DNA of 64,000 bases from the NCBI GenBank assembly GCA_036252695.1, contig GCA_036252695.1_4122.1; one strand, given 5' to 3'. Each line of letters starts with the position of its first letter. The stretch's first letter is position 1. The notes beneath the pieces were generated by a model. That model saw only the letters and a list, made by a program, of their open reading frames with translations, searched no databases and had not been told where the DNA came from. A program made the translations under genes and the position numbers. The stretch is from a phage. This document shows, one piece after another, positions 33,240-53,182 of this stretch.

Positions 33240-35200
33240 TATAGACAGGGGAAGCTCCGTAGGGAAAGCATTGGACAGGCTTTAACATATGTTATATATG
33301 TTAAAATTCAGCCTGCTCGACGTCTGAATTGTTAAAATTCAGCCTGGACAAATGCGATCACTAGGATTCTCCCCAGGCTAAACCCCGTAATCATATGTAG
33401 TCATAAGTAATCATATATAAACATTTATATTAGCACCGTAGAATCACAGAATGATTATATATGATTCAGTACTGATTAGTATAGACAAGATTGCTCAAGA
33501 TTGCTCAAGAATGCTAGGGAAGGATTCAGTACTGCCCCAAAAGTATTCAGTACTGAAGGTGTCGATATCCCACTAAGTAGGCAGAGGAAGTCTGCCGTAC
33601 TTTGTAGTTTCCAAGCTCCTTTTCCATTTTGCAAATTACATCAAATGTAATCAAAAGTAATCACGCAATGATTAGTACTGAATTATTACTTTCACCTTAA
33701 TTACAATTACCCTTTTACCAGTCGGGGTAAAATTCAATTACCCCTTGAGGCTCCAGCAAAAAGTTGGTTAGTACTCCATCCTAAATCTCGATCCTAAAAA
33801 TTTTGGAGTACCTATGAAATAAAAGTTGGATCTTCGAAAGTTGAAATTTACGTTGGGACGTTTATGATTTGTGGGATATAATGATGTTTGTAGTCGGGTA
33901 GTTCTCAAGAATATCAGTACTGAAAGATGAAAGAAAGTTATTGACTTTATGATTCAGTACTGTATAATGTTCTACATAGCTTCAAGGGGTGATGAGTTGC
34001 TGCGAACAATTCATTTACTCTACCTACTGTCGTGAGACAGTACAGAAAAGATAGTTCCTCCTATTGGTGGTACATCTTTTTGAACCTCATATGAAAATCG
34101 TAATAACAGTACTGATATTAACAGAATGGTATCAGTACTGATTTTAATCTAAAGCATTATGCCACCAGCACAAGCTGGTGGATTCCCTCTAACAGTATTC
34201 AGTACTACATGATAGTCTTCATCCTCCTAGGGTAACATAGTGAGGGCTATGATGGCAGTACTGAATACTCCCTTTCAAAAGATAGATCTATGGTATAGTA
34301 CTGACGGATTTTGGGTGTAGTTACCCTGGGTGGATTTTGGACGTAGATATGTCTAGCCCTCCAGAAGTCTGGAAGTAAAGATGGCTATCCATCTAGACGG
34401 CTAAACGGCTAGATTTCTGGATGGCTAGACGTTTGGACGGCTAAACGGCTAGATGGTTACACGTCTGGAAGTATAGACGGCTAAATCAAAATTTTATTTT
34501 GTTTTTTCCAATAGTTCCCCTACCGCGTGGGGATAGTTTCCCCGCAGTATCTGGAGTTAGATTTTTCTGAATCTGGAATCATTATCTTATAAACTGGGGG
34601 CAATGTCAACGGCCTGGACGGATATTTTTAAAAATTTTTTTCAGTACTGAATTTTGGGCGTAACTATGCACCCGGTGGGCTTGAGTCTTTCTCGACTTGA
34701 TGGAACTATTATACAGTACTGAAAAAAATAAAGCAATACCCTGGAAGCAAAAAAGTTTTAATTAATTTGCTTGCTATCCTGGGCCGGACTATGGTACTAT
34801 ATTTCAGTACTGAGAAAGTGCGTTTACCTGCTAGGGTGCGGGAGTGTATCCTTTTTTTATATCTTGAATTTTGGGCGTAATTCCGCACCCTCTGGGGTTT
34901 CCGCTTTCTCGCGTCTATGTAGTAATTATACGCTTTTTCAGGATCAAGTCAATACCTAAAAACAAAATAATTGAAAATAATTTAACGCGTTTAAACGGCC
35001 CGTAAAGCCCTGGAATGATTGGAATGGTGCAAATGTATAGCTTAGGTGTATTAATGCGTTAGAATGCGTCTGAGGCCGTTTTATGGGGTGTAGTAGTGAT
35101 TTGGTTGATTCAGTACTGAATGATAGTACTGAATAATAGTTCCCCTATATAGAAAGAAAACTATTTTAAAAGTACATGTAGAAAGTACTTGCAAACTATG
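33240..35200. repeat. ORF-free repeat-rich region (candidate origin, packaging site or regulatory hub)
   Basis: About 2 kb without a credible ORF; dense (T)CAGTACTGA palindromes (about 17 AGTACT by my read), short direct repeats (gattgctcaag x2, gttaaaattcagcct x2, gtaatca-type), and two ~60-bp related copies at ~34648..34715 and ~34865..34925. Confidence 0.6.
34380..34500. repeat. iteron-like direct repeats
   Basis: GACGGCTAAACGGCTAGAT at 34396..34414 and 34436..34454 plus partial copies (ggatggctagacg, gacggctaaatc) and TCTGGAAGTA twice. Confidence 0.6.
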
Positions 35201-36640: not shown

Positions 36641-36887
36641 GCAGTTTACAAATCTTTACAATTGCCGGTATTGACTTATTTTGTCAGTACTGGCATAATG
36701 TATTCATTGGCAGATAAGCCGTAGCCCATAGGGTGCGGGAGTGTATCTATAGAAAAAGTAGTTTAGTATAGTTACAATTGTGCACCCGGTGGGTTAGCTG
36801 TTGTCATGGGGTATATTATGCCAGTACTTGATAATGCTGTCAATACTTTTTTAATATTCAGTACTGAAAACTATTTTTAAAAAGTAC

Positions 36888-38328: not shown

Positions 38329-38336
38329 AAAAGTAC

Positions 38337-38396
38337 TTGCAATTAGTTTCAAGTACTGTATAATGGTTTACATCAAAGGGGGAAATGGTTCTCCCT
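38337..38396 (+). promoter_or_regulatory. early-type promoter plus leader hairpin
   Basis: TTGCAA 38337..38342, TATAAT 38359..38364, hairpin agggggaaatggttctccct 38377..38396. Confidence 0.6.
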
Positions 38397-38414
38397 GGTA
38401 ATGAGGAAAATAAA

Positions 38415-38636
38415 ATGGCTAATATCACTACTCTTTCCCAACTGGAAGCACTGGTTAAATCTATGCGGGAACATGCCGACAAAATCGGCGTACAAGATCC
38501 AGCCGTTTGCTTCTGCGACGAATTGAATGATGATACACTGGTAATAGCAGAAGTCCAGGACGTTTCTAACTATTCCTCGCGTTACACTGGCGGCGTAGCA
38601 AATAAAGGTGACTTCTGTTTATACCTTACAAAATAA
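38415..38636 (+). CDS. hypothetical early protein
   Basis: Start at Met after leader hairpin; SD gagga. Confidence 0.55.
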   Translation: MANITTLSQLEALVKSMREHADKIGVQDPAVCFCDELNDDTLVIAEVQDVSNYSSRYTGGVANKGDFCLYLTK

Positions 38637-38640
38637 CAAC

Positions 38641-38671
38641 GCGGGGAGATAATAACTCCCCGTTACTTTTT
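38641..38671 (+). terminator. intrinsic terminator
   Basis: cggggag-ataataa-ctccccg followed by T run. Confidence 0.55.
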
Positions 38672-38804
38672 CAGTACTGAATCATTTAATAGACGGATCT
38701 ATGCACCCGGTGGGTTAGTGACTGTTTCGTCTTGATGTAGTAATTATGCCAGTACTGGATGCACTTGTCAACAATTATTTTTCAAATACTTTTTATTAAA
38801 ATAC

Positions 38805-38858
38805 TTGCAATTAGTTTTTAAACGCGTATAATGTTTTGCATAGGGGGAGCGGTTCCCC
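38805..38858 (+). promoter_or_regulatory. early-type promoter plus leader hairpin
   Basis: TTGCAA 38805..38810, TATAAT 38827..38832, hairpin gggggagcggttcccc 38843..38858. Confidence 0.6.
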
Positions 38859-38879
38859 TGGTAACTAAGGAATAATAAA

Positions 38880-39137
38880 ATGCTTGAACAAATCAAATCA
38901 ACGTCTGCGAATGTAACGGGAACGGTAGCACACTTTACTAGTGATGAATCGCGGGGCGTTCCCTATTGTGCTGTACATGTAAACACTGAGGGTAACTACT
39001 GGTTTACGGTTTACGGATCATATTCATTTGGACGGCCAGGGCATCAAAAAATTCTGGATAAAGTACAACCAACGGGTAAAAATATCACTGCCGAAATGTT
39101 TTATAAAAATCATAAAGTACTTGATAATAGTTTTTAG
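38880..39137 (+). CDS. hypothetical early protein
   Basis: 85-aa ORF, SD aagga. Confidence 0.6.
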   Translation: MLEQIKSTSANVTGTVAHFTSDESRGVPYCAVHVNTEGNYWFTVYGSYSFGRPGHQKILDKVQPTGKNITAEMFYKNHKVLDNSF

Positions 39138-39199
39138 TACTGTATAATATTTTACATCGCAAGGGGGAGCGGTTCCCCCTGGTAACTAAGGATAATCAA

Positions 39200-39499
39200 A
39201 TGAAAATTGCAATCATCGCCCTGGCTTTATCTGTTTCCTCTTTCGCTGTTAATGCGTCATTAGATGTAAGTAGTGAAAAATTCATTCAGTGCACTGTTGC
39301 AATGACCGATGAAAGAACTGGCGAGATTGTATTAAAGGATTTAGAGATCCAGCCAGAAGCATTTAAAAACGGGCCGTTCCATGAAGAAGACGAAAAAGGT
39401 AGCACGACAATTTATTACGATGCAAGTACTAAACGCGGTTCGGTCACTGTTATGGATACTGAGAAAGTAACTCATACTGGCGTTATTAATTGCCGTTGA
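39200..39499 (+). CDS. small secreted/periplasmic protein (predicted signal peptide)
   Basis: N-term MKIAIIALALSVSSFAVNA-S fits signal peptidase I pattern; promoter and hairpin upstream. Confidence 0.6.
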   Translation: MKIAIIALALSVSSFAVNASLDVSSEKFIQCTVAMTDERTGEIVLKDLEIQPEAFKNGPFHEEDEKGSTTIYYDASTKRGSVTVMDTEKVTHTGVINCR

Positions 39500-39520
39500 T
39501 AGATACTACGGGGTAACATC

Positions 39521-39751
39521 ATGACTAAGCGAATTGTTTTACTTAACGAAAGCAGTACTACACAACTACTTAACGCCGTGCATTATGATATTGAAACGAG
39601 CGTTAATCTTATCAGTACTGTAGTACTATTGGACACTGGAAAGGTCGCCAATGATAAAGCGATTGCAGGTATATTAACGGATCTTGAGCCTGGTAGCAGT
39701 GCACCAATAACGTTAAATGGTAAAGTGTTTAATATTTTACTCACTGATTAA
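39521..39751 (+). CDS. hypothetical protein
   Basis: 76-aa ORF; followed by terminator. Confidence 0.5.
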   Translation: MTKRIVLLNESSTTQLLNAVHYDIETSVNLISTVVLLDTGKVANDKAIAGILTDLEPGSSAPITLNGKVFNILLTD

Positions 39752-39756
39752 GTACA

Positions 39757-39780
39757 TAGCCCACCTGGTGGGCTTTTTTG
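39757..39780 (+). terminator. intrinsic terminator
   Basis: agcccacc..ggtgggct stem then TTTTTT. Confidence 0.7.
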
Positions 39781-39984
39781 TTTTTGTAGTATCGTAGTAC
39801 TGAGATACTTTAAAAATAGTTTTAAAAAAGTAGTTGACATTACCACAAAAAGGCGTAGAATGTATTACATCAAGACGGGGAGCACTAAGTAGACCGCCAG
39901 TAAGTCGAACGAAAAACTGGACACGTCGAGAAAACTTTGATACACTAATAAACGTAAACTAAACTTTAATTGAGGATTTATAAA

Positions 39985-40467
39985 ATGGCTAATGTAAAAT
40001 CATTCATCAAAGCACTGGTAGCAAATGAAACTAACGTAGCGGCAGAGATCCTGGCTGAACTGGATAACGATACCATGAAAGCGGTACGCAATAATTTTAA
40101 CATCGCTTACAGTACTGCGAAAGAACTACAAGCAAATAAAGCGGCAGAAATTGAAGCGGCAAAGGCGGCCCGTGAAGCAGAACTACAAGCAACAATTGAA
40201 AGTATCCAGGCGGCAGTAGTTGGATTGGATCTGGAAGTAGTTACAGAGATGGCACAAAAAGCCCTGGCGGTTAAGTATGGGGAAGACAAGCCAGAAGTAA
40301 AAGCCAAAAAATGGATTCAGGAACGCGTAGCGGTAGTACTGGACAACGGGGAAGAATATCTGATTCCGGTGCGTGGTAACTGCATTGCGGTAGTACTGGA
40401 TGCGATTAACTCCAGTGGTATGACTCGCGAGGAATGGATCGAAGCTCATCGCAAAGTGGAAGCATAA
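39985..40467 (+). CDS. hypothetical protein (Ala/Glu-rich, predicted helical)
   Basis: Start MANVKSF after SD gagga; long structured leader from promoter at ~39836. Confidence 0.6.
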   Translation: MANVKSFIKALVANETNVAAEILAELDNDTMKAVRNNFNIAYSTAKELQANKAAEIEAAKAAREAELQATIESIQAAVVGLDLEVVTEMAQKALAVKYGEDKPEVKAKKWIQERVAVVLDNGEEYLIPVRGNCIAVVLDAINSSGMTREEWIEAHRKVEA

Positions 40468-40488
40468 CAATTAAAGTACTGAATCACT

Positions 40489-40515
40489 AGCCCACTGCAT
40501 AAGTGGGCTTTTTTG
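40489..40515 (+). terminator. intrinsic terminator
   Basis: gcccact-gcataa-gtgggc then TTTTTTG. Confidence 0.7.
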
Positions 40516-40751
40516 TGTTTATCGTTTACCAGGCCACCAGCACCGCCTAGAATCGATTCTAACGCATTAAACTGATTATCTGATGCATCGCCCTAGCTGG
40601 TGGCGTTAAGGTCGTTAGAATGCGATTGAGAGCGTTTAAAGTATTTTGCAAAAAGTAATAAAAAGTACTTGCACGATTAAGAGATTAGCGTATAATGTTT
40701 TACATCGAGAGGGGGAAACGGTTCTCCTTCCAAATCAAAGGAATTAAAACA

Positions 40752-40979
40752 ATGGCTATCGTAATCACTCGCGTAACTGGTACTACTGGCAATTCTTCTA
40801 CTGTTGCTGTAATTACTAATAAGAAAGGTGCGGAACTACATTTTGCAATGTATAACTGGTCAGTTGATGAGTTTGGTCAGTACGCTAGTGTAGAATACAT
40901 TGAAACCTATCAAGTGCCGTCGATTAGTTTAACTGATTTGGGCGTTGAGCGTATCCTTTGCCTGGATGAATTAAATTAA
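40752..40979 (+). CDS. hypothetical early protein
   Basis: Start MAIVITRV after promoter and hairpin gggggaaacggttctcc. Confidence 0.55.
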   Translation: MAIVITRVTGTTGNSSTVAVITNKKGAELHFAMYNWSVDEFGQYASVEYIETYQVPSISLTDLGVERILCLDELN

Positions 40980-41065
40980 AAAAGTACTTGCAAAGTAAAT
41001 CGAATAAAGTATAATACATTACATCAAGGGGAGAAATGGTTCTCCCTGATAATGAGGAAACTAAT

Positions 41066-41209
41066 ATGAAAACTTGTCAATGTGGTAAAAAATCTATTAC
41101 TGGTTTAAAGCGGGGCGTTGCTCTTTGTCAGTACCATTATAATTTACAAGTATGGGGTAAAGAATGGGCCGACCAGGTGGAAGCAGCAAAGAAAGCAAAA
41201 AGTAAGTAA
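41066..41209 (+). CDS. small Cys-containing protein (47 aa; CQCG..CQYH)
   Basis: Hand-translated ORF behind promoter and hairpin with SD gagga; below track cutoff. Confidence 0.4.
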   Translation: MKTCQCGKKSITGLKRGVALCQYHYNLQVWGKEWADQVEAAKKAKSK

Positions 41210-41228
41210 AAATATTATCACAGTACTA

Positions 41229-41257
41229 TTGACATAGTTTGATAGTACTGACATAAT
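41229..41257 (+). promoter_or_regulatory. class-2 promoter (AGTACT-flanked TTGACA..CATAAT)
   Basis: cagtactaTTGACAtagtttgatagtactgaCATAAT; same motif at ~41510, ~44590, ~52315. Confidence 0.55.
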
Positions 41258-41288
41258 AGATTTTATCAAGACAACTGAGGAAAATAAA

Positions 41289-41501
41289 ATGGCTATCATC
41301 ACTAAAATCAAAGTAAGTAAAACCCTGGTTAAACTTGAACAAGTGAAAGCAGGTTATAAAGTATCTTGGTGCGGTATGTATCGGATGTTCGCAGATATTG
41401 ATGAAGCAATCAATTATTACAGCGACACGGTTAAAAACTTTGTTCGTGCTGATGTGGTTATGGCAGTGGCAACGCACAAAGCAGCGAAAGAAAGTAAGTA
41501 A
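41289..41501 (+). CDS. hypothetical early protein (paralog of 44663..44842)
   Basis: MAIITKIKV..; similar N-term and length to 44663 gene. Confidence 0.55.
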   Translation: MAIITKIKVSKTLVKLEQVKAGYKVSWCGMYRMFADIDEAINYYSDTVKNFVRADVVMAVATHKAAKESK

Positions 41502-41590
41502 AAATATTATCACAGTACTATTGACATAGTTTGATAGTACTGGCATAATAGATTTTATCAAGACAACATATTAATTTAAGGAATACAAAA

Positions 41591-41914
41591 ATGGCTAAAA
41601 CTATCATTAACACCGTTTCCCTGGCTGCAATCCGTGCAATCAATGTTGACGGTAAACGTTGGACTGATTCATATGGCAATACTTATCATTCTTGTCATGT
41701 AAGCGTCGAACTGGATAACGGTTTGAATGATCTGGCGGTTGAATCATTTACTTATGGCTATGAAGATGCATATCAACAAACGGCGTTAGATCTATTAAAG
41801 GAATCAGTAGACGGGCTTAATACTGATGAAACCTCCCTTACTCGTTTGTGCAATGATCTTAATATCCCGTTGCATTGTACTGTACAGAATGTTAAACGCA
41901 AAAAAGATCTTTAA
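41591..41914 (+). CDS. hypothetical protein (paralog of 48675..48998)
   Basis: Shares RWTDSxGNTYHSCxVS and C-terminal VKRKKD with 48675 gene. Confidence 0.65.
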   Translation: MAKTIINTVSLAAIRAINVDGKRWTDSYGNTYHSCHVSVELDNGLNDLAVESFTYGYEDAYQQTALDLLKESVDGLNTDETSLTRLCNDLNIPLHCTVQNVKRKKDL

Positions 41915-41994
41915 TTAGCTTTACTTTATGCAGATACTTTGATATAGTGTCTGCATAGGGGAAAGAAATTAAATTAACTTAAGAGGAACGTATA

Positions 41995-42264
41995 ATGAAA
42001 AATATCAGTACTTTAATCGATGCAGGTACTCATGTTCGTCGGTCTATGGTTGCAACCAGTACTACAAAACAAGTAGCGAGCGGTTATCTTGTATTTGTGC
42101 ACGATGGTAAACTCCTGGAACGTTCAATCAATTTTGATGTTAAAAACAATTGCCGTTTTATTATCTTTAAGCGTGAACAATATAAAATTGATTTACCAGC
42201 GAAGCCCATAAGCGGGGCGTACAACGTGCAATCATTGTTTGAACGTCAACCATACACCTATTAA
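41995..42264 (+). CDS. hypothetical protein
   Basis: 89-aa ORF with SD gagga. Confidence 0.55.
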   Translation: MKNISTLIDAGTHVRRSMVATSTTKQVASGYLVFVHDGKLLERSINFDVKNNCRFIIFKREQYKIDLPAKPISGAYNVQSLFERQPYTY

Positions 42265-42315
42265 TCAAAACATCGTTAGCGGTCGATTTAGGCCGCTTGT
42301 ATTGGGGATTATACC

Positions 42316-42486
42316 ATGAACGTTAATCAAGTACTGAATGAGATCGAAAGCATCATTAAACCAATGAAACGCATTGATGCTATGTTAACACCGGAAGAAT
42401 GCCGCCTTTATGAGCGTTACAGTGTGGAACAAGCCCAGGAAATGGCCCGTATCCGTCCGGTTGCCAGTACTGATAAGGCGGCGTAA
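42316..42486 (+). CDS. hypothetical small protein (56 aa)
   Basis: Hand-translated; coupled to next gene (TAATATG). Confidence 0.35.
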   Translation: MNVNQVLNEIESIIKPMKRIDAMLTPEECRLYERYSVEQAQEMARIRPVASTDKAA

Positions 42487-42487
42487 T

Positions 42488-42697
42488 ATGCTTACTGTAC
42501 AGGATAAGATCGACATCTTAAAGGTTAATATGTATGTGATTGATGCCGTACCTGGTAAAGTATTTGCATACGATGATTCTAATCGCAGTCCGTTTTATTG
42601 CAGTCATGTAGTTGGATACGTGCCGTTGGCGTATGTTATAGAAAGAGTGGTTGATGCAGCATACAAACATTTTTTAGAAAATAATACTTGCAATTAG
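42488..42697 (+). CDS. hypothetical protein
   Basis: Start at internal Met MLTVQDK right after upstream stop. Confidence 0.45.
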   Translation: MLTVQDKIDILKVNMYVIDAVPGKVFAYDDSNRSPFYCSHVVGYVPLAYVIERVVDAAYKHFLENNTCN

Positions 42698-42767
42698 TTT
42701 TCAGTACTGTATAATGATTTACATCGAGAGCGGGAATAGTTCCCGCCTCACTTTTAAGGAATATGAA

Positions 42768-42914
42768 ATGAAAGCATCAAAAAAGAGTAATACTAAGAAA
42801 GCATGTTCACCTTTCGCTGGGGTATTCCCTTTACGTTTTGTTGATGAAGTAGTTTCCTACCCGCCGGGCCTTACTCCTGAGATGGTAGAAAGTTTGCGTA
42901 AATCTAAAAAATAG
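42768..42914 (+). CDS. hypothetical small basic protein (48 aa)
   Basis: Promoter, leader hairpin agcgggaatagttcccgc and SD aagga upstream. Confidence 0.45.
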   Translation: MKASKKSNTKKACSPFAGVFPLRFVDEVVSYPPGLTPEMVESLRKSKK

Positions 42915-42996
42915 TACTTGCAATTAGTTTTTAGTACTGTATAATAGTTTACATGAAGGGGAAAACGTTCCCCTTACACCTAACGAGGAAAGTATA

Positions 42997-43248
42997 ATGG
43001 AAACAATTTTAATCAAAGACACTGCTACTACTGTAACTTATGATAATGATTGCATTATCCCAGGGACTGAGTACGGCGAACGTGTACCCGTTCAAGTAGA
43101 GATTGATACCACATACATCGACAAGGCTGACCAGTGTATCACTATTGTAATTGGTGAATATCGTTTTCTACCAGAAGAGATCCAAAAATGGCAGAATATG
43201 ATTGACCGTGCGAAATTAGTCGCACAAAGTTTAAAATACAAAGTTTAA
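42997..43248 (+). CDS. hypothetical early protein
   Basis: Promoter, hairpin ggggaaaacgttcccc, SD gagga. Confidence 0.55.
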   Translation: METILIKDTATTVTYDNDCIIPGTEYGERVPVQVEIDTTYIDKADQCITIVIGEYRFLPEEIQKWQNMIDRAKLVAQSLKYKV

Positions 43249-43334
43249 AATAATACTTGCAATTAGTTTTTAAACGCGTATAATGTTTTACATGAAGGGG
43301 AGAAATGATTCTCCCCAATAACAGGAGAAACAAA

Positions 43335-43487
43335 ATGAAACAATACAACGCTCGGTTTGATGTTACTATCGGTAACGGCAAAGGTCAATTCTCTTTCAGT
43401 ACTCGCAAAAGTTATACAGAAAACTTCCTGCGTAATTGTGCACTGACCGCCGCACAAATTAAACATTACTTTCAGGCTAAAAAATGA
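43335..43487 (+). CDS. hypothetical small protein (50 aa)
   Basis: Promoter and hairpin ggggagaaatgattctcccc upstream; SD aggaga. Confidence 0.45.
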   Translation: MKQYNARFDVTIGNGKGQFSFSTRKSYTENFLRNCALTAAQIKHYFQAKK

Positions 43488-43573
43488 AATCATTAGCTTA
43501 TTACAGTTCGGCCCTGGTCGGTGCATTGATCGCGGCGTTGTTAGTAACCTATCTATTCTTTATGGTGATTTAA
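43484..43573 (+). CDS. putative 29-aa single-TM peptide
   Basis: Hand-translated MKSLAYYSSALVGALIAALLVTYLFFMVI; ATGA-coupled; speculative. Confidence 0.25.
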   Translation: MKSLAYYSSALVGALIAALLVTYLFFMVI

Positions 43574-43717
43574 ATGAATCCAACAGGTTTAAACTATAAA
43601 AGTTGTTCGGCGTTTACGAAAGCAAATAAAGCGAATGCACGTAAAGCGAAAGTAAAGGAGTACATCAAGCAAGGCATGACGCGAAAGGCGGCGATTCTAA
43701 AAGCTAAAAATAAATGA
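43574..43717 (+). CDS. putative small basic protein (47 aa)
   Basis: Hand-translated Lys-rich ORF directly after previous stop; speculative. Confidence 0.25.
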   Translation: MNPTGLNYKSCSAFTKANKANARKAKVKEYIKQGMTRKAAILKAKNK

Positions 43718-43860
43718 AAAAAGTGGTTGACTCCGGTCAGCCATTTTGCTATTATATATTCATTGAGAGATAGCTCACTAGCCCACAGGGTGCATAAGTG
43801 TATCTATTATATAAGTATTGAGTACTGAAAACTATTTTAAAAAAGTACTTGCAAACTATC
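43715..43860 (+). repeat. composite intergenic repeat unit (terminator with embedded TTGACT + TATTAT box + ~65-nt conserved segment)
   Basis: ggttgactccggtcagcc hairpin, gctattatata, then ..tagcccacagggtgcataagtgtatctat..cagtactgaaaactatttt; related copies near 47720, 51005, 52940; hairpin/-10 part also at 386..418 and 2014..2046. Confidence 0.55.
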
Positions 43861-43927
43861 TCAATAAGCGTATAATGTTTTACATCGAAAGGGGAAACGG
43901 TTTCCCCTGGTAATAAGGAAACAAATC

Positions 43928-44269
43928 ATGACTATCTCAATTGCTCAATCTAACTTTGAAAACGAAATCATCGCCCAGGCACTGCGTTTAAATGATGGTC
44001 GGGCCGAAATTAATTACGGTTTCAATTCAGGCGGTTGTGAAAAATATCAGTACTTTGTAACGGCTGATGGCGGTGTCCTGGGTATCAATACAGTTATTGT
44101 AAACATCCAAAAAATTAATTTCAATGATCCAGACGATAGCCAGTTTTACATCACTGGCGTAGACGTGAACTATGAGGATGACTCACTAACTGATGATCAC
44201 ACTGGCGAGCGGTTAGAAAGTGCATACGGTGAAGATGATTATCAGTCCGGTCCAGAAGATTTCGAATAA
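43928..44269 (+). CDS. hypothetical acidic protein
   Basis: 113-aa ORF behind promoter, hairpin ggggaaacggtttcccc and SD aagga. Confidence 0.6.
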   Translation: MTISIAQSNFENEIIAQALRLNDGRAEINYGFNSGGCEKYQYFVTADGGVLGINTVIVNIQKINFNDPDDSQFYITGVDVNYEDDSLTDDHTGERLESAYGEDDYQSGPEDFE

Positions 44270-44366
44270 TATAAAAAAAATAGTTTGACAATAGATTATA
44301 GTACTGTATAATAGTTTACATCAAGGGGAGAAAAACTTCTCCCCACTAACAGAGAGAGAAAACAAA

Positions 44367-44579
44367 ATGGCTAATATCCGGTCGAAATTAAAAAATGCAA
44401 AACAAGTTTTATTTTCAGATCATGAATACTTTAATAAAGATATTACAGGAGTTACAAGTATCAAGGAAGTAAAAGAAAAAACCGGCGTTTTGTGTGATGT
44501 GCGATTAGTTGGGACATTTGGGAATAACGTGCTATATCGCTGCGGTGATTACAATTTTACACTGACTATCATTAACTAA
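44367..44579 (+). CDS. hypothetical early protein
   Basis: Promoter TTGACA..TATAAT, hairpin ggggagaaaaacttctcccc, SD. Confidence 0.55.
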   Translation: MANIRSKLKNAKQVLFSDHEYFNKDITGVTSIKEVKEKTGVLCDVRLVGTFGNNVLYRCGDYNFTLTIIN

Positions 44580-44662
44580 AAATATTATCACAGTACTATT
44601 GACATAGTTTGATAGTACTGACATAATAACTTTTATCAACTACACTACTAAGGAATTAAAAA

Positions 44663-44842
44663 ATGGCTATCATCGCAAAAACTGAAATCGTTGGTCTGGA
44701 TTCTATCATCATGACGTTTGAAGATCAAAAAGGTATGTATGTAGTTTCCTATGGTGATTATGTTCGGGAGTATGAAACGGTAGACGAAGCCTTTGAAAGT
44801 TATATTCGCCAGGTGAATAAAGCATACGACGACTACCGCTAA
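44663..44842 (+). CDS. hypothetical early protein (59 aa; paralog of 41289..41501)
   Basis: Hand-translated MAIIAKTEIVG...; class-2 promoter upstream. Confidence 0.45.
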   Translation: MAIIAKTEIVGLDSIIMTFEDQKGMYVVSYGDYVREYETVDEAFESYIRQVNKAYDDYR

Positions 44843-44941
44843 AATATATTACCAGTACTATTAAATCTATTGACAACGTTTGATAGTACTGTATAATAAG
44901 TTTTATAAACAGTAGTTAACTTAACCTAAGAGAGAAATAAA

Positions 44942-45085
44942 ATGATCGCACTGGATTCATTCATCGACGCAGTACTGGCAAAAACTGGCGAGGATCTGAC
45001 CGCAGAACAATACGCGATGATCGAGCAATGTCAGCAAAACGGTAAATCGGTGAAAGATACTGTTAAGATTATCCGCAAGATGTAA
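44942..45085 (+). CDS. hypothetical small protein (47 aa)
   Basis: Hand-translated; promoter TTGACA..TATAAT upstream; hairpin terminator downstream. Confidence 0.4.
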   Translation: MIALDSFIDAVLAKTGEDLTAEQYAMIEQCQQNGKSVKDTVKIIRKM

Positions 45086-45091
45086 GATTAT

Positions 45092-45120
45092 AGCCCACTG
45101 GTTAACGCTGGTGGGCTTTA
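45092..45120 (+). terminator. probable intrinsic terminator
   Basis: agcccac..gtgggct stem with 12-nt loop; weak T tract. Confidence 0.45.
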
Positions 45121-45190
45121 ATCATTTACCCTATACAATGCCAGTACTAAACCGTTTATCTCGTTAGAATGCGTTACAGGACGTTTAACA

Positions 45191-45388
45191 ATGATTAGCA
45201 TGAAATCAGTACAAAAACAAATAGAAACATTATCAAAAATTAAACGTAAACAATACTCCTTAGAATATACAATCAATGGTAACTATCATCTAATGAAAGA
45301 AAATAATTTTATAGTCATTGATGAATCATTGCAAATTATTAGTATAGTACTGAAAGCATTAATCAATGACAGAAAAAAATTAAAATAA
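45191..45388 (+). CDS. hypothetical protein
   Basis: 65-aa ORF; AT-rich codons unlike neighbours. Confidence 0.4.
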   Translation: MISMKSVQKQIETLSKIKRKQYSLEYTINGNYHLMKENNFIVIDESLQIISIVLKALINDRKKLK

Positions 45389-45469
45389 TCTATTGACAAT
45401 ATCCTCCAGTACTGGCATAATACTTACATCAAGACGAGAACGTCACTAACCCATAGGGTGCACAAATGT

Positions 45470-45570
45470 AACTATATAATATCGATCAATAAATGATCAA
45501 AAAAGTACTGGATCAATTTAGCATAAGGAGTATAATTCTGATCAATTCTTGATCAAAGGCAATAAACGCA
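45470..45570. repeat. cluster of TGATCAA/TTGATCA motifs
   Basis: Five GATCAA-containing sites within ~90 bp in an intergenic region. Confidence 0.5.
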
Positions 45571-45717
45571 GTTGAATTTATATAGACAATACGAAGGCGT
45601 TACTATCCGTGGTAATGCTGGTGGATATGTAGTATCATGTGGTTTGAATAAGATTAGCACTAGTAGTATTATTGTAGCATTACAGTACTATAGTATTTTT
45701 ATAATGAGGTTAAAATA

Positions 45718-45975
45718 ATGGCTGTAGGATTTGCGAAGGACGGGGCCGAACAAGACGAGATTAACGCAGTGATTCAGGCCGCCGTAAACCACGCTAGAAA
45801 GCAAATTAACGCACAAATAGAATCACTGATACATTGCCTCGACTGTGGCGATAAAATCCCTGAGAATCGCCGCCAGGCTGTTAAGGGATGTAAGTACTGC
45901 ATAACTTGCCAGGAGGATCATGATAGTACTTTTAAAAGAGATCCGCGTAATTGTTGGCATAGATCTATGAGATAA
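45718..45975 (+). CDS. TraR/DksA-family C4 zinc-finger protein
   Basis: CLDCGDKIPENRRQAVKGCKYCITCQ gives the C-x2-C-x17-C-x2-C spacing with conserved IPxxRRQA core; SD aatgagg. Confidence 0.75.
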   Translation: MAVGFAKDGAEQDEINAVIQAAVNHARKQINAQIESLIHCLDCGDKIPENRRQAVKGCKYCITCQEDHDSTFKRDPRNCWHRSMR

Positions 45976-46038
45976 AAAGTATTGACAGTACTGAAAGATA
46001 GTGTATAATATTTTATATCTTAACTGAGGATAGTAATC

Positions 46039-46395
46039 ATGGGAATACAACATATCACGCGTACTACTGACAATGGTGAGATCACTGGCTATCAAGTACA
46101 GGGCAAAGTAGCACAATTGCAGTACTGGTTTGAAAAACGTGGAATCATTGCACCGGATCTTGATTATGACCGTGTAGCGTTTATTGATTCTCTTTATGTT
46201 GATCCTGATAGTCGGGGCAATGGTGAAGGTAACGAATTAATGAATGCCTTTATCGATGCCGCCGATGATTCAGATTGTATCATCTTAGAATGCGATACGG
46301 GAGAAGATAACGCCTTTAATCTTAAAGAATGGTACGAAGGTTTTGGATTCGAGGTACTGATCGATAGTGAATATCCTATCATGATTTTATCATAG
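46039..46395 (+). CDS. GNAT-family acetyltransferase-like protein
   Basis: LYVDPDSRGNGEGNELMNAFIDAA resembles GNAT acetyl-CoA-binding motif A; C-terminal YEGFGFE motif-B-like. Confidence 0.55.
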   Translation: MGIQHITRTTDNGEITGYQVQGKVAQLQYWFEKRGIIAPDLDYDRVAFIDSLYVDPDSRGNGEGNELMNAFIDAADDSDCIILECDTGEDNAFNLKEWYEGFGFEVLIDSEYPIMILS

Positions 46396-46467
46396 TACTT
46401 GCATTTAGTTTTCAGTACTGTTATAGTACTTACATCAAGGGGAAACGTCTTCCCCTACTAAGAGGAA

Positions 46468-46662
46468 ATGAAAATGGAAAACTTATCAAGTATTTTAGTA
46501 CAAGATGATTTCGGTAATCCTGGAAGTGCTATCATAGTTCGGGGCAATAAAGCAACGTTTGTTCTTGCTGGTGGGCCAGTACAGCGTAGCATTAAAAATA
46601 ATGCTGTTACCATTAATAATGTACGCTATCGCTTAGATAAAGAATTAATTAAAAATATGTAA
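46468..46662 (+). CDS. hypothetical early protein
   Basis: Promoter, hairpin ggggaaacgtcttcccc, SD gagga. Confidence 0.55.
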   Translation: MKMENLSSILVQDDFGNPGSAIIVRGNKATFVLAGGPVQRSIKNNAVTINNVRYRLDKELIKNM

Positions 46663-46687
46663 TATTAACTCAATAGGAAAACGATAA

Positions 46688-47011
46688 ATGTATATTCACA
46701 CTACTATCACAAAAGAAGTCCGTTGTCAATTCGAAAGTATCCCAGGTGTATGTTTCATTACAGGCACTTTCTCACCTGGTGACCGTGATAATCCAGTACT
46801 GTTACAATTACGCCATCCATCATGGGATAAAGCATTTGATCTACCGTTGAATGAATTCGCAACTACTGCTGAAAAGTACATTAAAAATATTCGCGAGAAT
46901 GATCGACTATTCATTAATGCTTTCAGTGATTCCGCGTTAAGCGAGATTCATGCGGTACTAGTTGCAATCATGGAATCAATGCAGAAAACTAAATTCAAAC
47001 AAGGTGAATAA
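46688..47011 (+). CDS. hypothetical protein
   Basis: 107-aa ORF with SD-like aggaaaa. Confidence 0.55.
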   Translation: MYIHTTITKEVRCQFESIPGVCFITGTFSPGDRDNPVLLQLRHPSWDKAFDLPLNEFATTAEKYIKNIRENDRLFINAFSDSALSEIHAVLVAIMESMQKTKFKQGE

Positions 47012-47095
47012 AAACTATTGACAATGCAATCCAGTACTGTATAATAAGTTACATGAAGGGGAGAAATGATTCTCCCCAGTACTGAGGAAAGAAAA

Positions 47096-47308
47096 ATGCA
47101 AGGTCAACTAATCGTTCGTAAATGGTCTGATACTAACGCTAAACCGTGGGATGTACAATACATCGCCCCCAATGGTGAATCCAGATATCAACCAGGTGTA
47201 ACGCATAGTACTGAGCAATTTGCCGCCGCTCACCGTGAACGACTGTTACAATCCATGCAGCAAGGCTTCGGTGAAAAATTCATTCAGGATCATTGGCTGA
47301 AAGATTAA
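47096..47308 (+). CDS. hypothetical early protein
   Basis: Promoter TTGACA..TATAAT, hairpin ggggagaaatgattctcccc, SD gagga. Confidence 0.55.
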   Translation: MQGQLIVRKWSDTNAKPWDVQYIAPNGESRYQPGVTHSTEQFAAAHRERLLQSMQQGFGEKFIQDHWLKD

Positions 47309-47394
47309 AAAGTACTTGCACAGTACTGAATAAAGTGTATAATGTTTTATATCGAGAGGGGAACTATTCCCCTCCTAACAAAAAGGAAAGTATA

Positions 47395-47568
47395 ATGATC
47401 CAAGTAGAATTATCAGTACTGAAAGATCTATTTTATCGGTTAGGTACTAATGGCGAGTATCCTAAAAGTGATACCGCAAAACTTTTTGTATCACTCGACT
47501 TATGGCAACGCGAACAATTAGTAATGTCGTGGCGTAAAGGTAAAGCAGATCGCGAGGTGAAAGCATGA
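47395..47568 (+). CDS. hypothetical small protein (57 aa)
   Basis: Start after promoter, hairpin gaggggaactattcccctc and SD aagga. Confidence 0.45.
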   Translation: MIQVELSVLKDLFYRLGTNGEYPKSDTAKLFVSLDLWQREQLVMSWRKGKADREVKA

Positions 47569-47714
47569 AAGAATTCTTATTCGAAGTAGTGTTTCAAGGT
47601 GTCGGTAGTAACCAACTGATTCGCTCAAGTGGTTATAATGTTAACCAGGCATGGAATAACATTAAACAAATGTACCCGAACGCTATCACATATCGCAACC
47701 CGAAAGAAGTTTAA
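47565..47714 (+). CDS. hypothetical small protein (49 aa)
   Basis: Hand-translated; ATGA-coupled. Confidence 0.35.
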   Translation: MKEFLFEVVFQGVGSNQLIRSSGYNVNQAWNNIKQMYPNAITYRNPKEV

Positions 47715-47899
47715 AAATAATTGAAAAAGGGATTGACTCCGGTCAATCCCTTTGCTATTATATACGCATAGAAACAAATTAGCCCACCGGGTGCATAAAT
47801 GTATCTATTGTTTGCTGGTGGCTAGTACTATCAAGTACTGAAAACTATTTTTAAAAAAGTACTTGCATTGTACTTAGAATCAAGTATAATGTTTTACAT

Positions 47900-47979
47900 C
47901 AGGACGGGGAACGAAATAAGTAACTTCCCGTTAAGTAGTCCAGGAGTAAGACATACGAAAAACTCCCCTGATAAAATAG
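47900..47979 (+). ncRNA. candidate structured RNA element / long leader (copy 2)
   Basis: Near-identical to 36925..37004; again sits between two tandem promoters. Confidence 0.4.
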
Positions 47980-48040
47980 TTTGACAATAGAAATTAAACG
48001 AGTATAATACTTACATCAACCACTGATAAGGAAACATAAA

Positions 48041-48316
48041 ATGCGGATTCTACTGACAGCTAACGAAATCGAACAAGTACTGACTACTAACCTGGAAGAC
48101 TGGAAACGTGAAGCAGATATCCAGTCGGTTCAATGGCTTAACGATAAGTTAACGCCGGATGACTTAAGCAAGATTGTAGATCCTCAATTCTACGAAGATA
48201 TCCACGACACCGCGTTAAGCGTCGAGGATGTACTAGATAAGCACTTTATTGATACAGATTTGCAGGTTTACGGTCGTAAAAACTTTATCACTATTCACGA
48301 CATTTACAATACTTAA
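48041..48316 (+). CDS. hypothetical protein
   Basis: 91-aa ORF with SD aagga behind second tandem promoter. Confidence 0.6.
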   Translation: MRILLTANEIEQVLTTNLEDWKREADIQSVQWLNDKLTPDDLSKIVDPQFYEDIHDTALSVEDVLDKHFIDTDLQVYGRKNFITIHDIYNT

Positions 48317-48319
48317 GTA

Positions 48320-48382
48320 TTGACAAAGTATCTTAGTACTGTATAATAGTTTACATCAAGTGAGGGGAAACGGTTCCCCTCC
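48320..48382 (+). promoter_or_regulatory. class-3 promoter plus leader hairpin
   Basis: TTGACA 48320..48325, TATAAT 48342..48347, hairpin gaggggaaacggttcccctc 48363..48382; near-identical copy ~48593..48650. Confidence 0.6.
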
Positions 48383-48404
48383 TAACAAAGAGAGAGAAAT
48401 AAAA

Positions 48405-48587
48405 ATGGCTAAGTGCACTATCTGCAAGAAAGAAATAGTATTAGTTCCAAGTGCCCGTGAACGTGCCGCTCGGTTTGGTGGCAAAGCGTCAGACTATACA
48501 AAAATGTTTACTGCCCATACAGCTTGCCAGGTAGCAAAACGTTCACAAGAAAGCGTAGAATTAATGCGTAAACTTTCCAAAAAATAA
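48405..48587 (+). CDS. small putative zinc-ribbon protein
   Basis: MAKCTICKKE...HTACQ (CxxC ... HxxC); SD gagaga. Confidence 0.5.
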   Translation: MAKCTICKKEIVLVPSARERAARFGGKASDYTKMFTAHTACQVAKRSQESVELMRKLSKK

Positions 48588-48674
48588 GTATTGACAAAGT
48601 ATCTTAGTACTGTATAATAGTTTACATCAAGTGAGGGGAATGGTTCCCCTCCTAACAAAAAGAGAGAAATTAAA

Positions 48675-48998: not shown

Positions 48999-49097
48999 TA
49001 GAATCCATTTAAAGTACTATTTGACATTGCCCAGATAGTACTTTATAATAGACTCTAACTTGTAGTACTAATTAACTTAACTAATAGGATGTACACC

Positions 49098-51003: not shown

Positions 51004-51227
51004 AAAAGATTAAAAAAGGGATTGACTCCAGTCAGTCCCTTTGCTATTATATATTCATTGAGAGATAACTCACTGACCCATAGGGTGCGGAAGTGTATCT
51101 ATTATATAAGTATTCAGTACTGAAAACTATTTTATAAAAAGTACTTGCAAACTATCTCAATGAGCGTATAATGTTTTATATCGAGAGGGGGAAATGGTTC
51201 TCCCTGGTACTAAAAGGAATCAAGACG

Positions 51228-52924: not shown

Positions 52925-53182
52925 CAAAAAAGAATAAAAAAAAGGGATTGACTCCGGTCAGTCCCTTTGCTATTATATACGCATAGACAAAAACTAGCCC
53001 ACAGGGTGCAGAGAAGTATCTATAAGATAGTTAATAACGGTGAGTAACTATCTGCTGGTGGATGTAATGCCAGTACTCAAAACTATTTCAAAAAAAGTAT
53101 TGACAAAGTATATCAGTACTGAGATAATGTATCTCGTAGGGCGGCAATAGTGCAGCCCACCTCCAAAAGAGCGAGATATAAA

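What the first reader, a model, noticed from the sequence alone, without database searches (positions are those of the whole stretch)
43715..43860. Recurrent composite intergenic unit: terminator with embedded -35, TATTAT box and a ~65-nt conserved segment
Related copies at ~43715, ~47720, ~51005 and ~52940 (and the hairpin/-10 part alone at 386..418 and 2014..2046). Each has a hairpin gggattgactccggtcagtccc whose stem contains TTGACT, then gctattatata (-10-like at ~17-18 nt), then a conserved segment (..tagcccaYagggtgcRnaAgtgtatctat..cagtactgaaaactatttt) ending in a T-run. The layout is consistent with a small transcript (sRNA) from a promoter overlapping the upstream gene's terminator.
Basis: inference. 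Interest (0 to 1): 0.6.

Follow-up and report, generated by a model that had tools for sequence, protein, structure and literature searches.

The report
Repeated early RNA module in jumbo phage
The repeated intergenic unit is real: a combined terminator/promoter launches a conserved, folded ~50-nucleotide RNA that occurs ten times in this jumbo coliphage's terminal repeat and in related phages of at least five genera, matches no described RNA family, and has no known function.

Summary
The window comes from an Asteriusvirus (PBECO4/121Q-like jumbo coliphage).

**What each copy contains:**
- A GC hairpin with a UNCG-type loop, which is terminator-like for the upstream gene.
- A strong sigma-70 promoter, P_A (TTGACT-17-TGcTATTAT), whose -35 lies inside that hairpin.
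- A 52-nt module that begins at the predicted start site.

**The module** has a short 5' hairpin (P1, with clear covariation), an almost invariant CCC-AYN-GGGUGC hairpin (P2), and a pyrimidine strand able to pair alternatively with GGGUG (P3).

**Copy number and spread:**
- A covariance model finds 10 full copies in the window, not 4. They lie on both strands, all inside the ~21-kb direct terminal repeat.
- It finds 79 copies in seven phages of five or more genera, and 69 of these sit directly behind a promoter.
- Thirty copies form convergent twins, often exactly 109 bp apart.

the 3' "T-run" is not a terminator. It is an AGTACT palindrome plus the UP element of the next gene's own promoter.

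**Comparison with known systems:**
- Rfam, E. coli genomes and the literature give no match for the module.
- The hairpin/promoter composite resembles the PeSL cassettes of T4-type phages.

**Best reading:** autonomous immediate-early non-coding transcription units whose folded 5' RNA is the functional part. It is probably a protein-binding RNA. A put-like cis-acting role is the main rival.

The parts
43720..43747 (+). Copy c1: terminator-like hairpin (AAAGTGGTTGAC-TCCG-GTCAGCCATTTT) directly after the stop codon of ORF 43574-43717. It contains the -35 of P_A. The A-run before it and the T-rich run after it make it terminator-like on both strands.
   Evidence: The orthologous hairpin in phage G17 is annotated as an ARNold terminator.
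43727..43755 (+). Copy c1: promoter P_A. TTGACT (43727-32), 17-nt spacer, TGc-TATTAT (43750-55). Predicted start at A43762.
   Evidence: sequence
43762..43813 (+). Copy c1 of the 52-nt RNA module. P1 is TGAG/CTCA (43764-67 with 43774-77). P2 is GCCC-ACA-GGGT (43781-91). The invariant GGGTGC lies at 43788-93. The P3 3' strand GTATCT lies at 43800-05.
   Evidence: covariance model 54.3 bits, E = 7e-13
43818..43876 (+). Not part of the module. Holds the palindrome TTGAGTACTGAA, the A/T-rich UP-like tract (aaaactattttaaaaaa) and the next gene's own promoter P_B (TTGCAA-16-TATAAT, 43849-43876). A 5'UTR GC hairpin, RBS and ATG at 43928 follow.
   Evidence: (families D3-D7)
47726..47814 (+). Copy c2: hairpin 47726-53, P_A 47733-61, module 47763-47814. 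A Chi site (47814-21) and a degenerate inverted copy of the core follow.
51015..51108 (+). Copy c3: hairpin 51015-42, P_A 51022-50, module 51057-51108 (the best-scoring copy, 56.7 bits).
52941..53029 (+). Copy c4: hairpin 52941-68, P_A 52948-76, module 52978-53029. A ~50-nt insert with its own hairpin and a Chi site (53054-61) follows.
36671..36813 (.). Convergent twin. Promoter TTGACT-17-CATAAT (36671-99) drives the module at 36705-36756 (+). A second module at 36762-36813 (-) faces it and is driven by its own TTGACA...CATAAT promoter just to the right. The 5'-to-5' span is 109 bp.
45393..45481 (+). Copy without a terminator hairpin: promoter TTGACA-17-CATAAT (45393-45421), module 45430-45481. 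A cluster of five GATCAA/TTGATC repeats follows, upstream of a DksA/TraR-like zinc-finger gene.
38630..38771 (-). Stand-alone antisense-oriented copy. Promoter TTGACA-17-CATAAT (38771->38743), start at ~38736, module 38734->38683, palindrome TTCAGTACTGAA, then a bidirectional GC hairpin with a U-tract (~38667->38630). The predicted RNA is ~107 nt.
34648..34916 (-). Two minus-strand copies (34699->34648 and 34916->34865), each with its own promoter, in the non-coding start of the terminal repeat. A partial plus-strand copy at 34832-34851 consists of the P3 hairpin alone followed by T7 (terminator-like).
386..447 (+). Hairpin/promoter-only cassette. Hairpin 386-405 (UUCG loop), TTGACT 389-394, 18-nt spacer, TATAAT 413-418, then RBS and ATG at 445. 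No RNA module.
2024..2087 (+). Second hairpin/promoter-only cassette. Hairpin 2024-2043, TTGACT 2027-32, TATAAT 2051-56, ATG at 2085.

Best explanation
Each unit is a small, autonomous, immediate-early transcription unit of the phage's direct terminal repeat.

**How the unit is built**
- The hairpin ends the upstream gene's transcript.
- Because its 5' arm and loop spell TTGACT, the hairpin also supplies the -35 of a strong host sigma-70 promoter. This is a PeSL-type terminator/promoter cassette.
- That promoter does not start an mRNA. It starts a 52-nt structured non-coding RNA module.

**The module**
- A short 5' hairpin, P1, with a purine-rich loop.
- Then YWR, followed by the nearly invariant hairpin CCC-AYN-GGGU (P2) and GC.
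- A purine-rich stretch, and then a pyrimidine strand (GYRYCY) that can pair alternatively with GGGUG (P3).

**What I infer**
- The functional product is this folded 5' RNA, made in high dose: 10 copies per repeat, so 20 per genome, all behind strong early promoters.
- It acts through sequence-specific recognition of the invariant P2-UGC motif by a protein conserved across Enterobacterales hosts or across this phage clade. Its role would be decoy, sponge or scaffold.
- It does not act by base-pairing through a seed.

**Why the 3' ends differ**
- Sense-oriented copies, including the four in the finding, need no terminator, because read-through only adds to expression of the next gene. That gene keeps its own promoter.
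- Antisense-oriented copies end at bidirectional terminators or face a second copy head-on.

**Shown versus inferred**
- Shown computationally: the anatomy, the promoter coupling, the covariation and pair compatibility, the copy number, the restriction to this clade and the location in the terminal repeat.
- Inferred: that transcription actually occurs, that the RNA acts in trans, and that a protein partner exists.
For: **Promoter coupling**
- In 69 of 79 copies a TTGACA/TTGACT-16..18-TAnnnT promoter ends 2-10 nt before position 1 of the module.
- The same hairpin/promoter drives ordinary genes at 386 and 2024.

**RNA-level constraint**
- P1 is present at a fixed position with at least 3 bp in 67 of 76 copies and at least 4 bp in 48 of 76. 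Shuffles give 27.5 and 10.3 (z = 11). There are 33 different stem sequences.
- P2 is paired in 95.5% of cells, against 10-71% when the partner is slid. It tolerates 3- or 4-nt loops, has G-U/A-U alternation at its closing pair, and shows two CCU/AGG double changes.
- P3 is paired in 89.6% of cells against 36-54% when slid. Its 3' strand varies almost only by transitions that keep pairing with the invariant G and U.

**Conservation**
- 79 copies occur in Asteriusvirus, Alcyoneusvirus, Mimasvirus, Eneladusvirus and unclassified relatives, although the flanking genes differ.
- In IMG/VR the module occurs only in 345-378-kb contigs.

**Autonomy**
- Copies occur in both orientations.
- Some antisense copies end at terminators, for example a predicted 107-nt RNA at 38736->38630.
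- The downstream genes of c1-c4 are unrelated to one another and keep their own promoters.

**Location and coding potential**
- All copies lie inside the terminal repeat (DTR of 20,993 bp in fEgEco12, PMC13070987).
- The module is not coding: there is no 3-nt periodicity and no conserved start codon.
Against: - There are no transcript data for any phage of this group, so promoter use, RNA ends and abundance are all predictions.
- Sense copies have no terminator. The 'sRNA' there may simply be the leader of an mRNA with two promoters.
- P2 and P3 rest mostly on one-sided changes, because GGGUGC is almost invariant. The column-shuffle control is therefore uninformative.
- RNAalifold recovers only P2.
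- Whole-leader folding of c1 and c3 is no better than shuffled sequence (z = -0.6 and -0.8).
- No protein partner is identified.
- The fixed position directly behind a promoter fits a cis-acting role at least as well as a trans-acting one.
Confidence: 0.45

Rival explanations
1. The module is a cis-acting leader that modifies the RNA polymerase transcribing it. This would be processive antitermination of the kind carried out by HK022 put RNA or lambda nut/boxB. Transcripts restarted at a terminator-embedded promoter could then read through the many terminators of the early region. A variant of this idea is that the P2/P3 alternative acts as an attenuator.
For: - The module always lies at +1 to +52 of a promoter.
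- It has two small hairpins separated by 3-4 nt. P1 has a short stem with a purine-rich 6-7-nt loop (GAGAAA, GCGAAA, AGAACAA), which resembles boxB.
- Sense copies lack terminators, and most sit directly after a terminator.
- The early region has further plain terminators downstream.
- In a few copies P3 is followed by a U-run, for example 34832-34858 and GAP32 17328.
Against: - About a third of the copies are antisense to the genes. They end at terminators within ~100 nt or collide with a twin copy, which makes no sense for an antiterminator.
- Every downstream gene keeps its own promoter.
- In most copies P3 is weak, GU-rich and not followed by a U-tract.
- There is no match to any Rfam family.
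Confidence: 0.22
2. The units are only PeSL-like regulatory and recombination cassettes. On this view the conserved segment has no function of its own and is kept uniform by duplication and gene conversion.
For: - T4-type phages carry dozens of promoter plus stem-loop cassettes whose stem-loop may overlap the -35. These cassettes mediate gene shuffling (PMC2839356, PMC4122927).
- This region is full of such cassettes.
- Alignments to close relatives are mosaic.
Against: - The core is kept across genera whose flanking genes and cassette sequences have diverged.
- P1 stems differ in sequence but keep their pairing.
- The core is invariant while its surroundings vary.
- The twin copies keep an exact 109-bp geometry in four genera.
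Confidence: 0.12
3. The conserved core works at the DNA level or as an RNA:DNA hybrid. It could be a protein-binding or pause site just downstream of the promoter. It could also be a T4-style R-loop replication origin, or a recombination element of the terminal repeat driven by transcription of a G-rich stretch.
For: - The copies are restricted to the terminal repeat, lie in both orientations and form convergent pairs.
- The non-template strand is G-rich (GGGTGCGGAGG) and is followed by A/T-rich DNA.
- The same region is enriched in Chi sites.
- Iteron-like repeats lie nearby.
- These phages belong to the wider T4-like group (PMC5259590).
Against: - The G-U/A-U and G-U/G-C alternations are strand-specific, so they fit RNA rather than duplex DNA.
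- The P2 loop length varies between 3 and 4 nt.
- The covariation in P1 is unexplained by this reading.
- The dyad symmetry is only 3-4 bp, which is too short for an operator.
Confidence: 0.12
4. The units are minigenes of the lambda bar type. GGGUG would serve as a Shine-Dalgarno sequence. Five nt later comes a start codon, then UAU CUA and a stop. Such minigenes would sequester a rare tRNA through peptidyl-tRNA drop-off.
For: - 38 of 77 copies have ATG, GTG or TTG at positions 10-12 after GGG.
- 14 of these encode exactly M-Y-L-stop, and 5 are start-stop.
- CUA is a rare Leu codon in E. coli (general knowledge).
Against: - Half of the copies, including c4 and three of the four minus-strand copies in the window, have no start codon there.
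- Column variability shows no codon periodicity.
- The putative SD is locked in P2.
Confidence: 0.05

Closest known systems
PeSL cassettes (promoter-early stem-loop) of T4-type phages (Arbiol et al. 2010, PMC2839356; Comeau et al. 2014, PMC4122927)
   Same: - A strong sigma-70-like promoter with an A/T-rich upstream tract is combined with a stem-loop that terminates upstream transcription.
- The stem-loop may overlap the -35.
- Many copies lie between small ORFan genes of a plastic early region.
- The cassettes at 386 and 2024, and the hairpin plus promoter part of c1-c4, fit this description.
   Different: - A PeSL ends in the SD and start codon of the next gene.
- In c1-c4 the promoter instead launches a conserved 52-nt non-coding module, and a second, ordinary promoter cassette follows.
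- The module itself is not part of any described PeSL.
HK022 put and lambda nut (boxB) antitermination RNAs
   Same: - Small hairpins are encoded just downstream of early promoters in a genome punctuated by terminators.
- P1 looks like a boxB-type hairpin, with a short stem and a purine-rich loop.
   Different: - There is no sequence similarity and no Rfam hit.
- Many copies are antisense, are followed by terminators or are arranged head-on.
- No cis effect on termination has been tested.
Highly expressed non-coding RNAs in the terminal repeat of jumbo phage PA5oct (Lood et al. 2020, PMC7318152)
   Same: This distantly related jumbo phage has RNA-seq evidence for abundant ncRNAs in its long terminal repeat (2-5% of phage reads each), and their function is unknown.
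   Different: - Those RNAs are 236 and 451 nt long and occur as single copies.
- They have no similarity to this module. The covariance model finds nothing in that region.
Multi-copy protein-sponge RNAs (CsrB/CsrC type) and phage RNA decoys such as RNA anti-CRISPRs
   Same: The same short hairpin motif is supplied in many copies at a high dose, and a purine-rich loop (GGA in about half of the copies) sits in a hairpin.
   Different: - Here the copies are separate transcription units, not repeats within one RNA.
- GGA is not conserved: it is absent from most copies in this window.
- The resemblance to type I-F CRISPR repeats is weak and recalled from memory only.

Membership tests
PeSL (promoter-early stem-loop cassette) | Strong sigma-70-like promoter with an A/T-rich upstream tract | tested here: met
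   TTGACT-17-TGcTATTAT in c1-c4 and TTGACT-18-TATAAT at 386 and 2024, each with an A-run upstream.
PeSL (promoter-early stem-loop cassette) | Stable stem-loop within or next to the promoter that can terminate upstream transcription | tested here: met
   The hairpin overlaps the -35 and is scored as terminator-like. Orthologues are annotated by ARNold at -13 to -14.7 kcal/mol. Actual termination was not tested.
PeSL (promoter-early stem-loop cassette) | [quoted passage not shown] | tested here: not met
   This is met at 386 and 2024. In c1-c4 the promoter is followed by the 52-nt module and a second promoter before any SD or ATG.
PeSL (promoter-early stem-loop cassette) | Recombination between cassettes creates indels between close relatives | not tested
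   Alignments to relatives are mosaic, but no breakpoints were mapped.
Intrinsic (Rho-independent) terminator closing the proposed sRNA | GC-rich hairpin followed directly by a U-tract at the 3' end of the unit | tested here: not met
   For c1-c4 no such site lies between the module and the next promoter. It is met for some antisense copies, namely window 38667->38630 and RaK2 and Munch copies.
Any Rfam 15 family | Covariance-model match at the gathering score, or any suggestive sub-threshold match | tested here: not met
   There were no hits at gathering score in the whole window. With E up to 5 in 34.4-53.3 kb, nothing matched on the modules.
Hfq-type base-pairing sRNA | Own promoter, a conserved single-stranded seed, and a terminator hairpin with a U-tail | tested here: not met
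   The promoter is present. However, the conserved part is structured, the 3' part is variable, and most copies have no terminator.
put/nut-type antiterminator RNA | Promoter-proximal hairpins that make the transcribing polymerase resistant to terminators | not testable with these tools
   The anatomy is superficially compatible. The function needs a read-through assay.
bar-type minigene | SD, start codon, 1-3 codons and a stop, present in the family | tested here: not met
   Only 38 of 77 copies have a start codon at that position, and there is no codon periodicity.

The most novel reading that the evidence does not exclude
The 52-nt module is a previously undescribed class of phage regulatory RNA, specific to RaK2/121Q-like jumbo phages. 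It would be made from about 20 promoters per genome within the first minutes of infection. It would either reprogram the transcribing host RNA polymerase in cis (put-like) or titrate a conserved host factor in trans. The 109-bp convergent twins would yield long hairpin or double-stranded RNAs with a role of their own.
Probability: 0.3. Interest if true: 0.8.

Novelty: new variant of a known kind. Interest (0 to 1): 0.6.

Why it matters
Jumbo phages of this clade (hosts E. coli, Klebsiella, Salmonella, Cronobacter, Yersinia, Pectobacterium and Erwinia) are being developed for therapy, yet their early programme is essentially unannotated.

This work points to a concrete, testable element in that programme:
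- It is a conserved RNA motif placed behind the strongest early promoters.
- It is present about 20 times per genome, in the terminal repeat.
- It is conserved across genera.

If the RNA sequesters a host factor or alters polymerase behaviour, it would be a new host-takeover mechanism.

Even if it does not, two practical gains remain:
- The covariance model gives annotators a new RNA family.
- The hairpin with a built-in -35 is a compact bifunctional terminator/promoter part.

Tried and rejected
- **Rfam.** I searched at gathering score and at a permissive E-value. Nothing matched.
- **tRNA/tmRNA scan.** None were found.
- **Small protein through the core.**
  - The frame starting at the GTG inside GGGTGC is open in 56 of 77 copies. 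It has no usable SD, its length varies from 8 to 52 aa, and it shows no third-position variability.
- **Three-codon minigene.** Only half of the copies have a start codon.
- **Closing stem between the 5' end (AUAGA) and UCUAU.**
  - It is seen in some copies only and does not covary.
  - The pairing of the c1/c3 5' end with the spacer of the next promoter is lost in the G17 orthologue.
- **Mutual information on the ungapped alignment.** It showed only P1.
- **Host mimicry.** There is no match in 5,426 E. coli genomes at E up to 10. Resemblances to the tRNA-Cys and tRNA-Tyr anticodon stems, the RfaH ops element, the CsrA site and type I-F CRISPR repeats were recalled from memory. They are partial and confined to subclasses, so I did not pursue them.
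- **PA5oct ncRNA001 and ncRNA002.** Their sequences are unrelated.
- **Paralogy of the downstream genes.** The genes after c1-c4 are unrelated, so the unit was not spread by gene duplication.
- **IMG/VR scan with the 15-mer core.** Most of the 78 loci are chance hits. Only the jumbo contigs carry the full module.
- **Literature.** Searches on Asteriusvirus, phAPEC6, CBB, RaK2, fEgEco12 and PBECO4/121Q found no description of the element.

Full report
**What the window is.** A 5-kb piece around the finding matches 57 phage records at 90-98% identity. All are PBECO4/121Q-like jumbo coliphages (genus Asteriusvirus, 350-385 kb) or their Salmonella and Klebsiella relatives. Position 1 of phage fEgEco12 maps to window 33,576, and the end of its repeat maps to about 54,750. 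That phage has an experimentally supported 20,993-bp direct terminal repeat (PMC13070987). The region from about 33.6 to 54.8 kb is therefore the terminal repeat. It holds dozens of tiny plus-strand ORFs. Each has its own sigma-70-type promoter (AAAGTACTTGCAA or TTGACA, 16 nt, TATAAT), a GC hairpin in the 5'UTR and an RBS.

**Check of the observation.**
- The hairpins are scored as terminator-like. In all four, TTGACT-17-TATTAT with a TG one base before the -10 is scored as promoter-like.
- The motifs are far above chance.
- At 386 and 2024 the same hairpin/promoter (TTGACT-18-TATAAT) is followed about 27 nt later by an RBS and an ATG. So the composite is used as an ordinary promoter there.

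**The family is larger, and only part of the 'conserved segment' belongs to it.**
- The core CCCAYNGGGTGC occurs ten times in the window, on both strands.
- Each occurrence lies about 25-35 nt downstream of a sigma-70-like -10 on its own strand.
- The same arrangement appears in RaK2, GAP32, CBB, fHe-Yen9-03, Munch and Hallingskeid.
- A covariance model built from 68 copies finds 79 copies in these seven phages. It finds none in PA5oct.
- With filters off it finds 10 full copies plus one partial copy in the window:
  - plus strand: 36705, 43762, 45430, 47763, 51057, 52978;
  - minus strand: 34699, 34916, 36813, 38734;
  - partial: 34832-34851.
- In IMG/VR the full module occurs only in contigs of 345-378 kb.
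CAGTACTGAAAA belongs to a hugely over-represented AGTACT palindrome, discussed under context below.
- The tract aaaactattttaaaaaa is the A/T-rich upstream element of the next TTGCAA-16-TATAAT promoter. It also occurs in front of promoters without a module.

**Anatomy of the module.**
- In 69 of 79 copies a promoter with TTGACA or TTGACT ends 2-10 nt before model position 1. The module is therefore the first ~52 nt of the predicted transcript.
- P1 is a hairpin of 3-5 bp with a 6-8-nt purine-rich loop (GAGAAA, GCGAAA, AGAACAA, AGAUAA). It ends 3-5 nt before the core.
  - Under these positional constraints, 67 of 76 copies have at least 3 bp and 48 of 76 have at least 4 bp. Shuffles give 27.5 and 10.3 (z = 11).
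  - There are 33 different stem sequences. This is real covariation.
- The linker is usually TAA, TAG or TGA (53 of 76 copies).
- P2 (R-CCC, loop AYN or 4 nt, GGG-U) is paired in 95.5% of cells, against 10-71% when the partner is slid.
  - Its closing pair alternates between G-U and A-U.
  - One CCU/AGG double change is counted by the tool, and a second is visible in the aligned rows.
- GGGUGC is nearly invariant.
- Six nt further on, a pyrimidine strand (GUAUCU, CGUCU, CGCCC, GUACCC and others) can pair with GGGUG (P3).
  - It is paired in 89.6% of cells against 36-54% when slid.
  - The columns opposite G show only U or C, and the column opposite U shows only A or G.
- P2 and P3 exclude each other. 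In the predicted ensembles P2 dominates in 46 of 77 copies and P3 in 15. RNAalifold returns only P2.
- Because one strand is invariant, the evidence for P2 and P3 is compatibility rather than strong covariation. G-U tolerance does argue for RNA on the transcribed strand.

**What follows the module.**
- In the four copies of the finding there is no terminator before the next promoter. Transcripts from the hairpin promoter should continue into the next gene.
- The downstream genes of c1-c4 are unrelated to one another.
- The antisense-oriented copy at 38734 ends at a bidirectional GC hairpin with a U-tract, which predicts a 107-nt RNA. Copies in RaK2 and Munch do the same.
- Thirty of 78 copies form convergent twins. 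In 8 of the 15 pairs, from four genera, the two 5' ends are exactly 109 bp apart. The window's twin is at 36705-36813. Each twin transcript would fold into a long hairpin through the core and its complement.
- c2 and c4 carry a decayed inverted core downstream, which overlaps a Chi site.

**Interpretation.**
- The pattern fits independent small non-coding transcription units inserted between genes in either orientation. Termination is provided only where read-through would be antisense.
- The conserved, structured 5' part is the likely functional RNA.
- Three features together point to recognition by a conserved protein rather than seed pairing: high copy number, strong early promoters and an invariant hairpin-plus-UGC motif kept across phages of different enterobacterial hosts. 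This step is inference.
- The main rival is a cis-acting, put- or nut-like leader. The invariable promoter-proximal position and the boxB-like P1 favour it. The antisense and twin copies argue against it.
- The remaining readings are less likely, for the reasons given in the rival entries:
  - pure recombination cassettes;
  - DNA or R-loop functions;
  - bar-like minigenes, for which only 38 of 77 copies have a start codon.

**Comparison with what is known.**
- The hairpin/promoter composite matches the published definition of PeSL cassettes in T4-type phages. That definition includes stem-loops that overlap the -35 (PMC2839356, PMC4122927).
- The cassettes at 386 and 2024 are straightforward members of that kind.
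- In c1-c4 one defining feature fails: the cassette does not lead into an SD and start codon.
- The 52-nt module has no counterpart in Rfam, in E. coli genomes or in the papers I could search.
- A distant relative, PA5oct, has abundant ncRNAs in its terminal repeat according to RNA-seq (PMC7318152). Their sequences are unrelated.

**Context noticed on the way.**
- AGTACT occurs 265 times against 21.6 expected. The 12-nt palindrome TTCAGTACTGAA with up to 1 mismatch occurs 25 times against 0.3 expected.
- Chi occurs 13 times against 0.74 expected. Nine of these are on the plus strand of the repeat.
- The first 1.6 kb of the repeat is non-coding and holds iteron-like repeats.
- In relatives, the centre of some twins is a Fur-box-like palindrome. 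No such box with 4 or fewer mismatches exists in this window.

**Verdict.**
- The finding is real, non-random and more extensive than described.
- The promoter-in-terminator reading holds computationally.
- The 'sRNA ending in a T-run' reading needs correction.
- The conserved RNA module is an undescribed, clade-specific family whose function is open.

Noticed in passing
whole window, densest at 28-52 kb: The hexamer AGTACT occurs 265 times against 21.6 expected, which is 12-fold and by far the most enriched 6-nt palindrome. The 12-nt palindrome TTCAGTACTGAA with up to 1 mismatch occurs 25 times against 0.3 expected. In early promoters AGTACT sits just upstream of the -35 (AAAGTACTTGCAA) and just upstream of the -10 (AGTACTGTATAAT), about two helical turns apart. 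This suggests a binding site for a dimeric regulator.
   Followed up: partly
window 34162-53061 (also 15329, 15587): E. coli Chi sites (GCTGGTGG) occur 13 times against 0.74 expected. Nine lie on the plus strand inside the terminal repeat. A back-to-back pair sits at 34162(-)/34174(+). Two lie just after modules c2 (47814) and c4 (53054), where they overlap a decayed inverted copy of the module core.
   Followed up: partly
window 33576-35190: This is the probable left end of the direct terminal repeat, since fEgEco12 position 1 maps to window 33,576. It is followed by ~1.6 kb without convincing ORFs. That stretch contains iteron-like direct repeats (GACGGCTAAACGGCTAGAT and variants, 34380-34490), many AGTACT palindromes and three module copies. 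It could be an origin, packaging or injection-control region.
   Followed up: partly
window 36705-36813; L003 3769-3877, 6598-6706, 22879-22987; L005 988-1096 and others: The modules form convergent 'twin' units. There are 15 pairs, and in 8 of them, from four genera, the two 5' ends are exactly 109 bp apart. The result is an imperfect ~109-bp palindrome flanked by inward-facing promoters.
   Followed up: partly
L006 7420-7450 and 1035-1057; L007 9891-9913 and 10436-10451; L002 12032-12058; L004 338-360: In relatives (Munch, Hallingskeid, RaK2, fHe-Yen9-03) the centre of the wider twins (120-132 bp) is a Fur-box-like palindrome. One example is cttGATAATGATAATCATTtAC, which matches 16-17 of 19 positions of the E. 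coli Fur box as I recall it. No such box with 4 or fewer mismatches exists in this window.
   Followed up: no
window 45480-45560: Five GATCAA/TTGATC repeats (Dam GATC sites) lie between the module at 45430-45481 and a DksA/TraR-type C4 zinc-finger gene (45718-45975). A similar GATCAA pair follows the homologous module in phage Hallingskeid.
   Followed up: no
window 8350-28210, minus strand: An array of about 17-18 paralogous genes with ~1.2-kb spacing shares conserved N-terminal coding sequence, RBS, promoter and terminator blocks (repeat families D1, D2, D6, D12, D16). Genes in the equivalent position in GAP32 and Hallingskeid are annotated as RCC1-like.
   Followed up: no
window 30880-32265: Seven copies of a 43-nt repeat (AAAGAATACTACA...) lie at ~190-bp spacing (family D19). 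I did not examine them.
   Followed up: no
window 35170-53910: The ordinary gene-proximal cassettes consist of an A/T tract, (AGTAC)TTGCAA or TTGACA, 16 nt, TATAAT, TTTACATC, a G-run/C-run hairpin, an RBS and an ATG. More than 25 copies occur. They match the PeSL architecture described for T4-type phages (PMC2839356).
   Followed up: partly
module linker, all copies: The three bases before the CCC of P2 are a stop codon (TAA, TAG or TGA) in 53 of 76 copies. In several copies they close a 2-codon ATG-NNN-stop mini-frame that starts in the 3' strand of P1. The significance is unknown.
   Followed up: no
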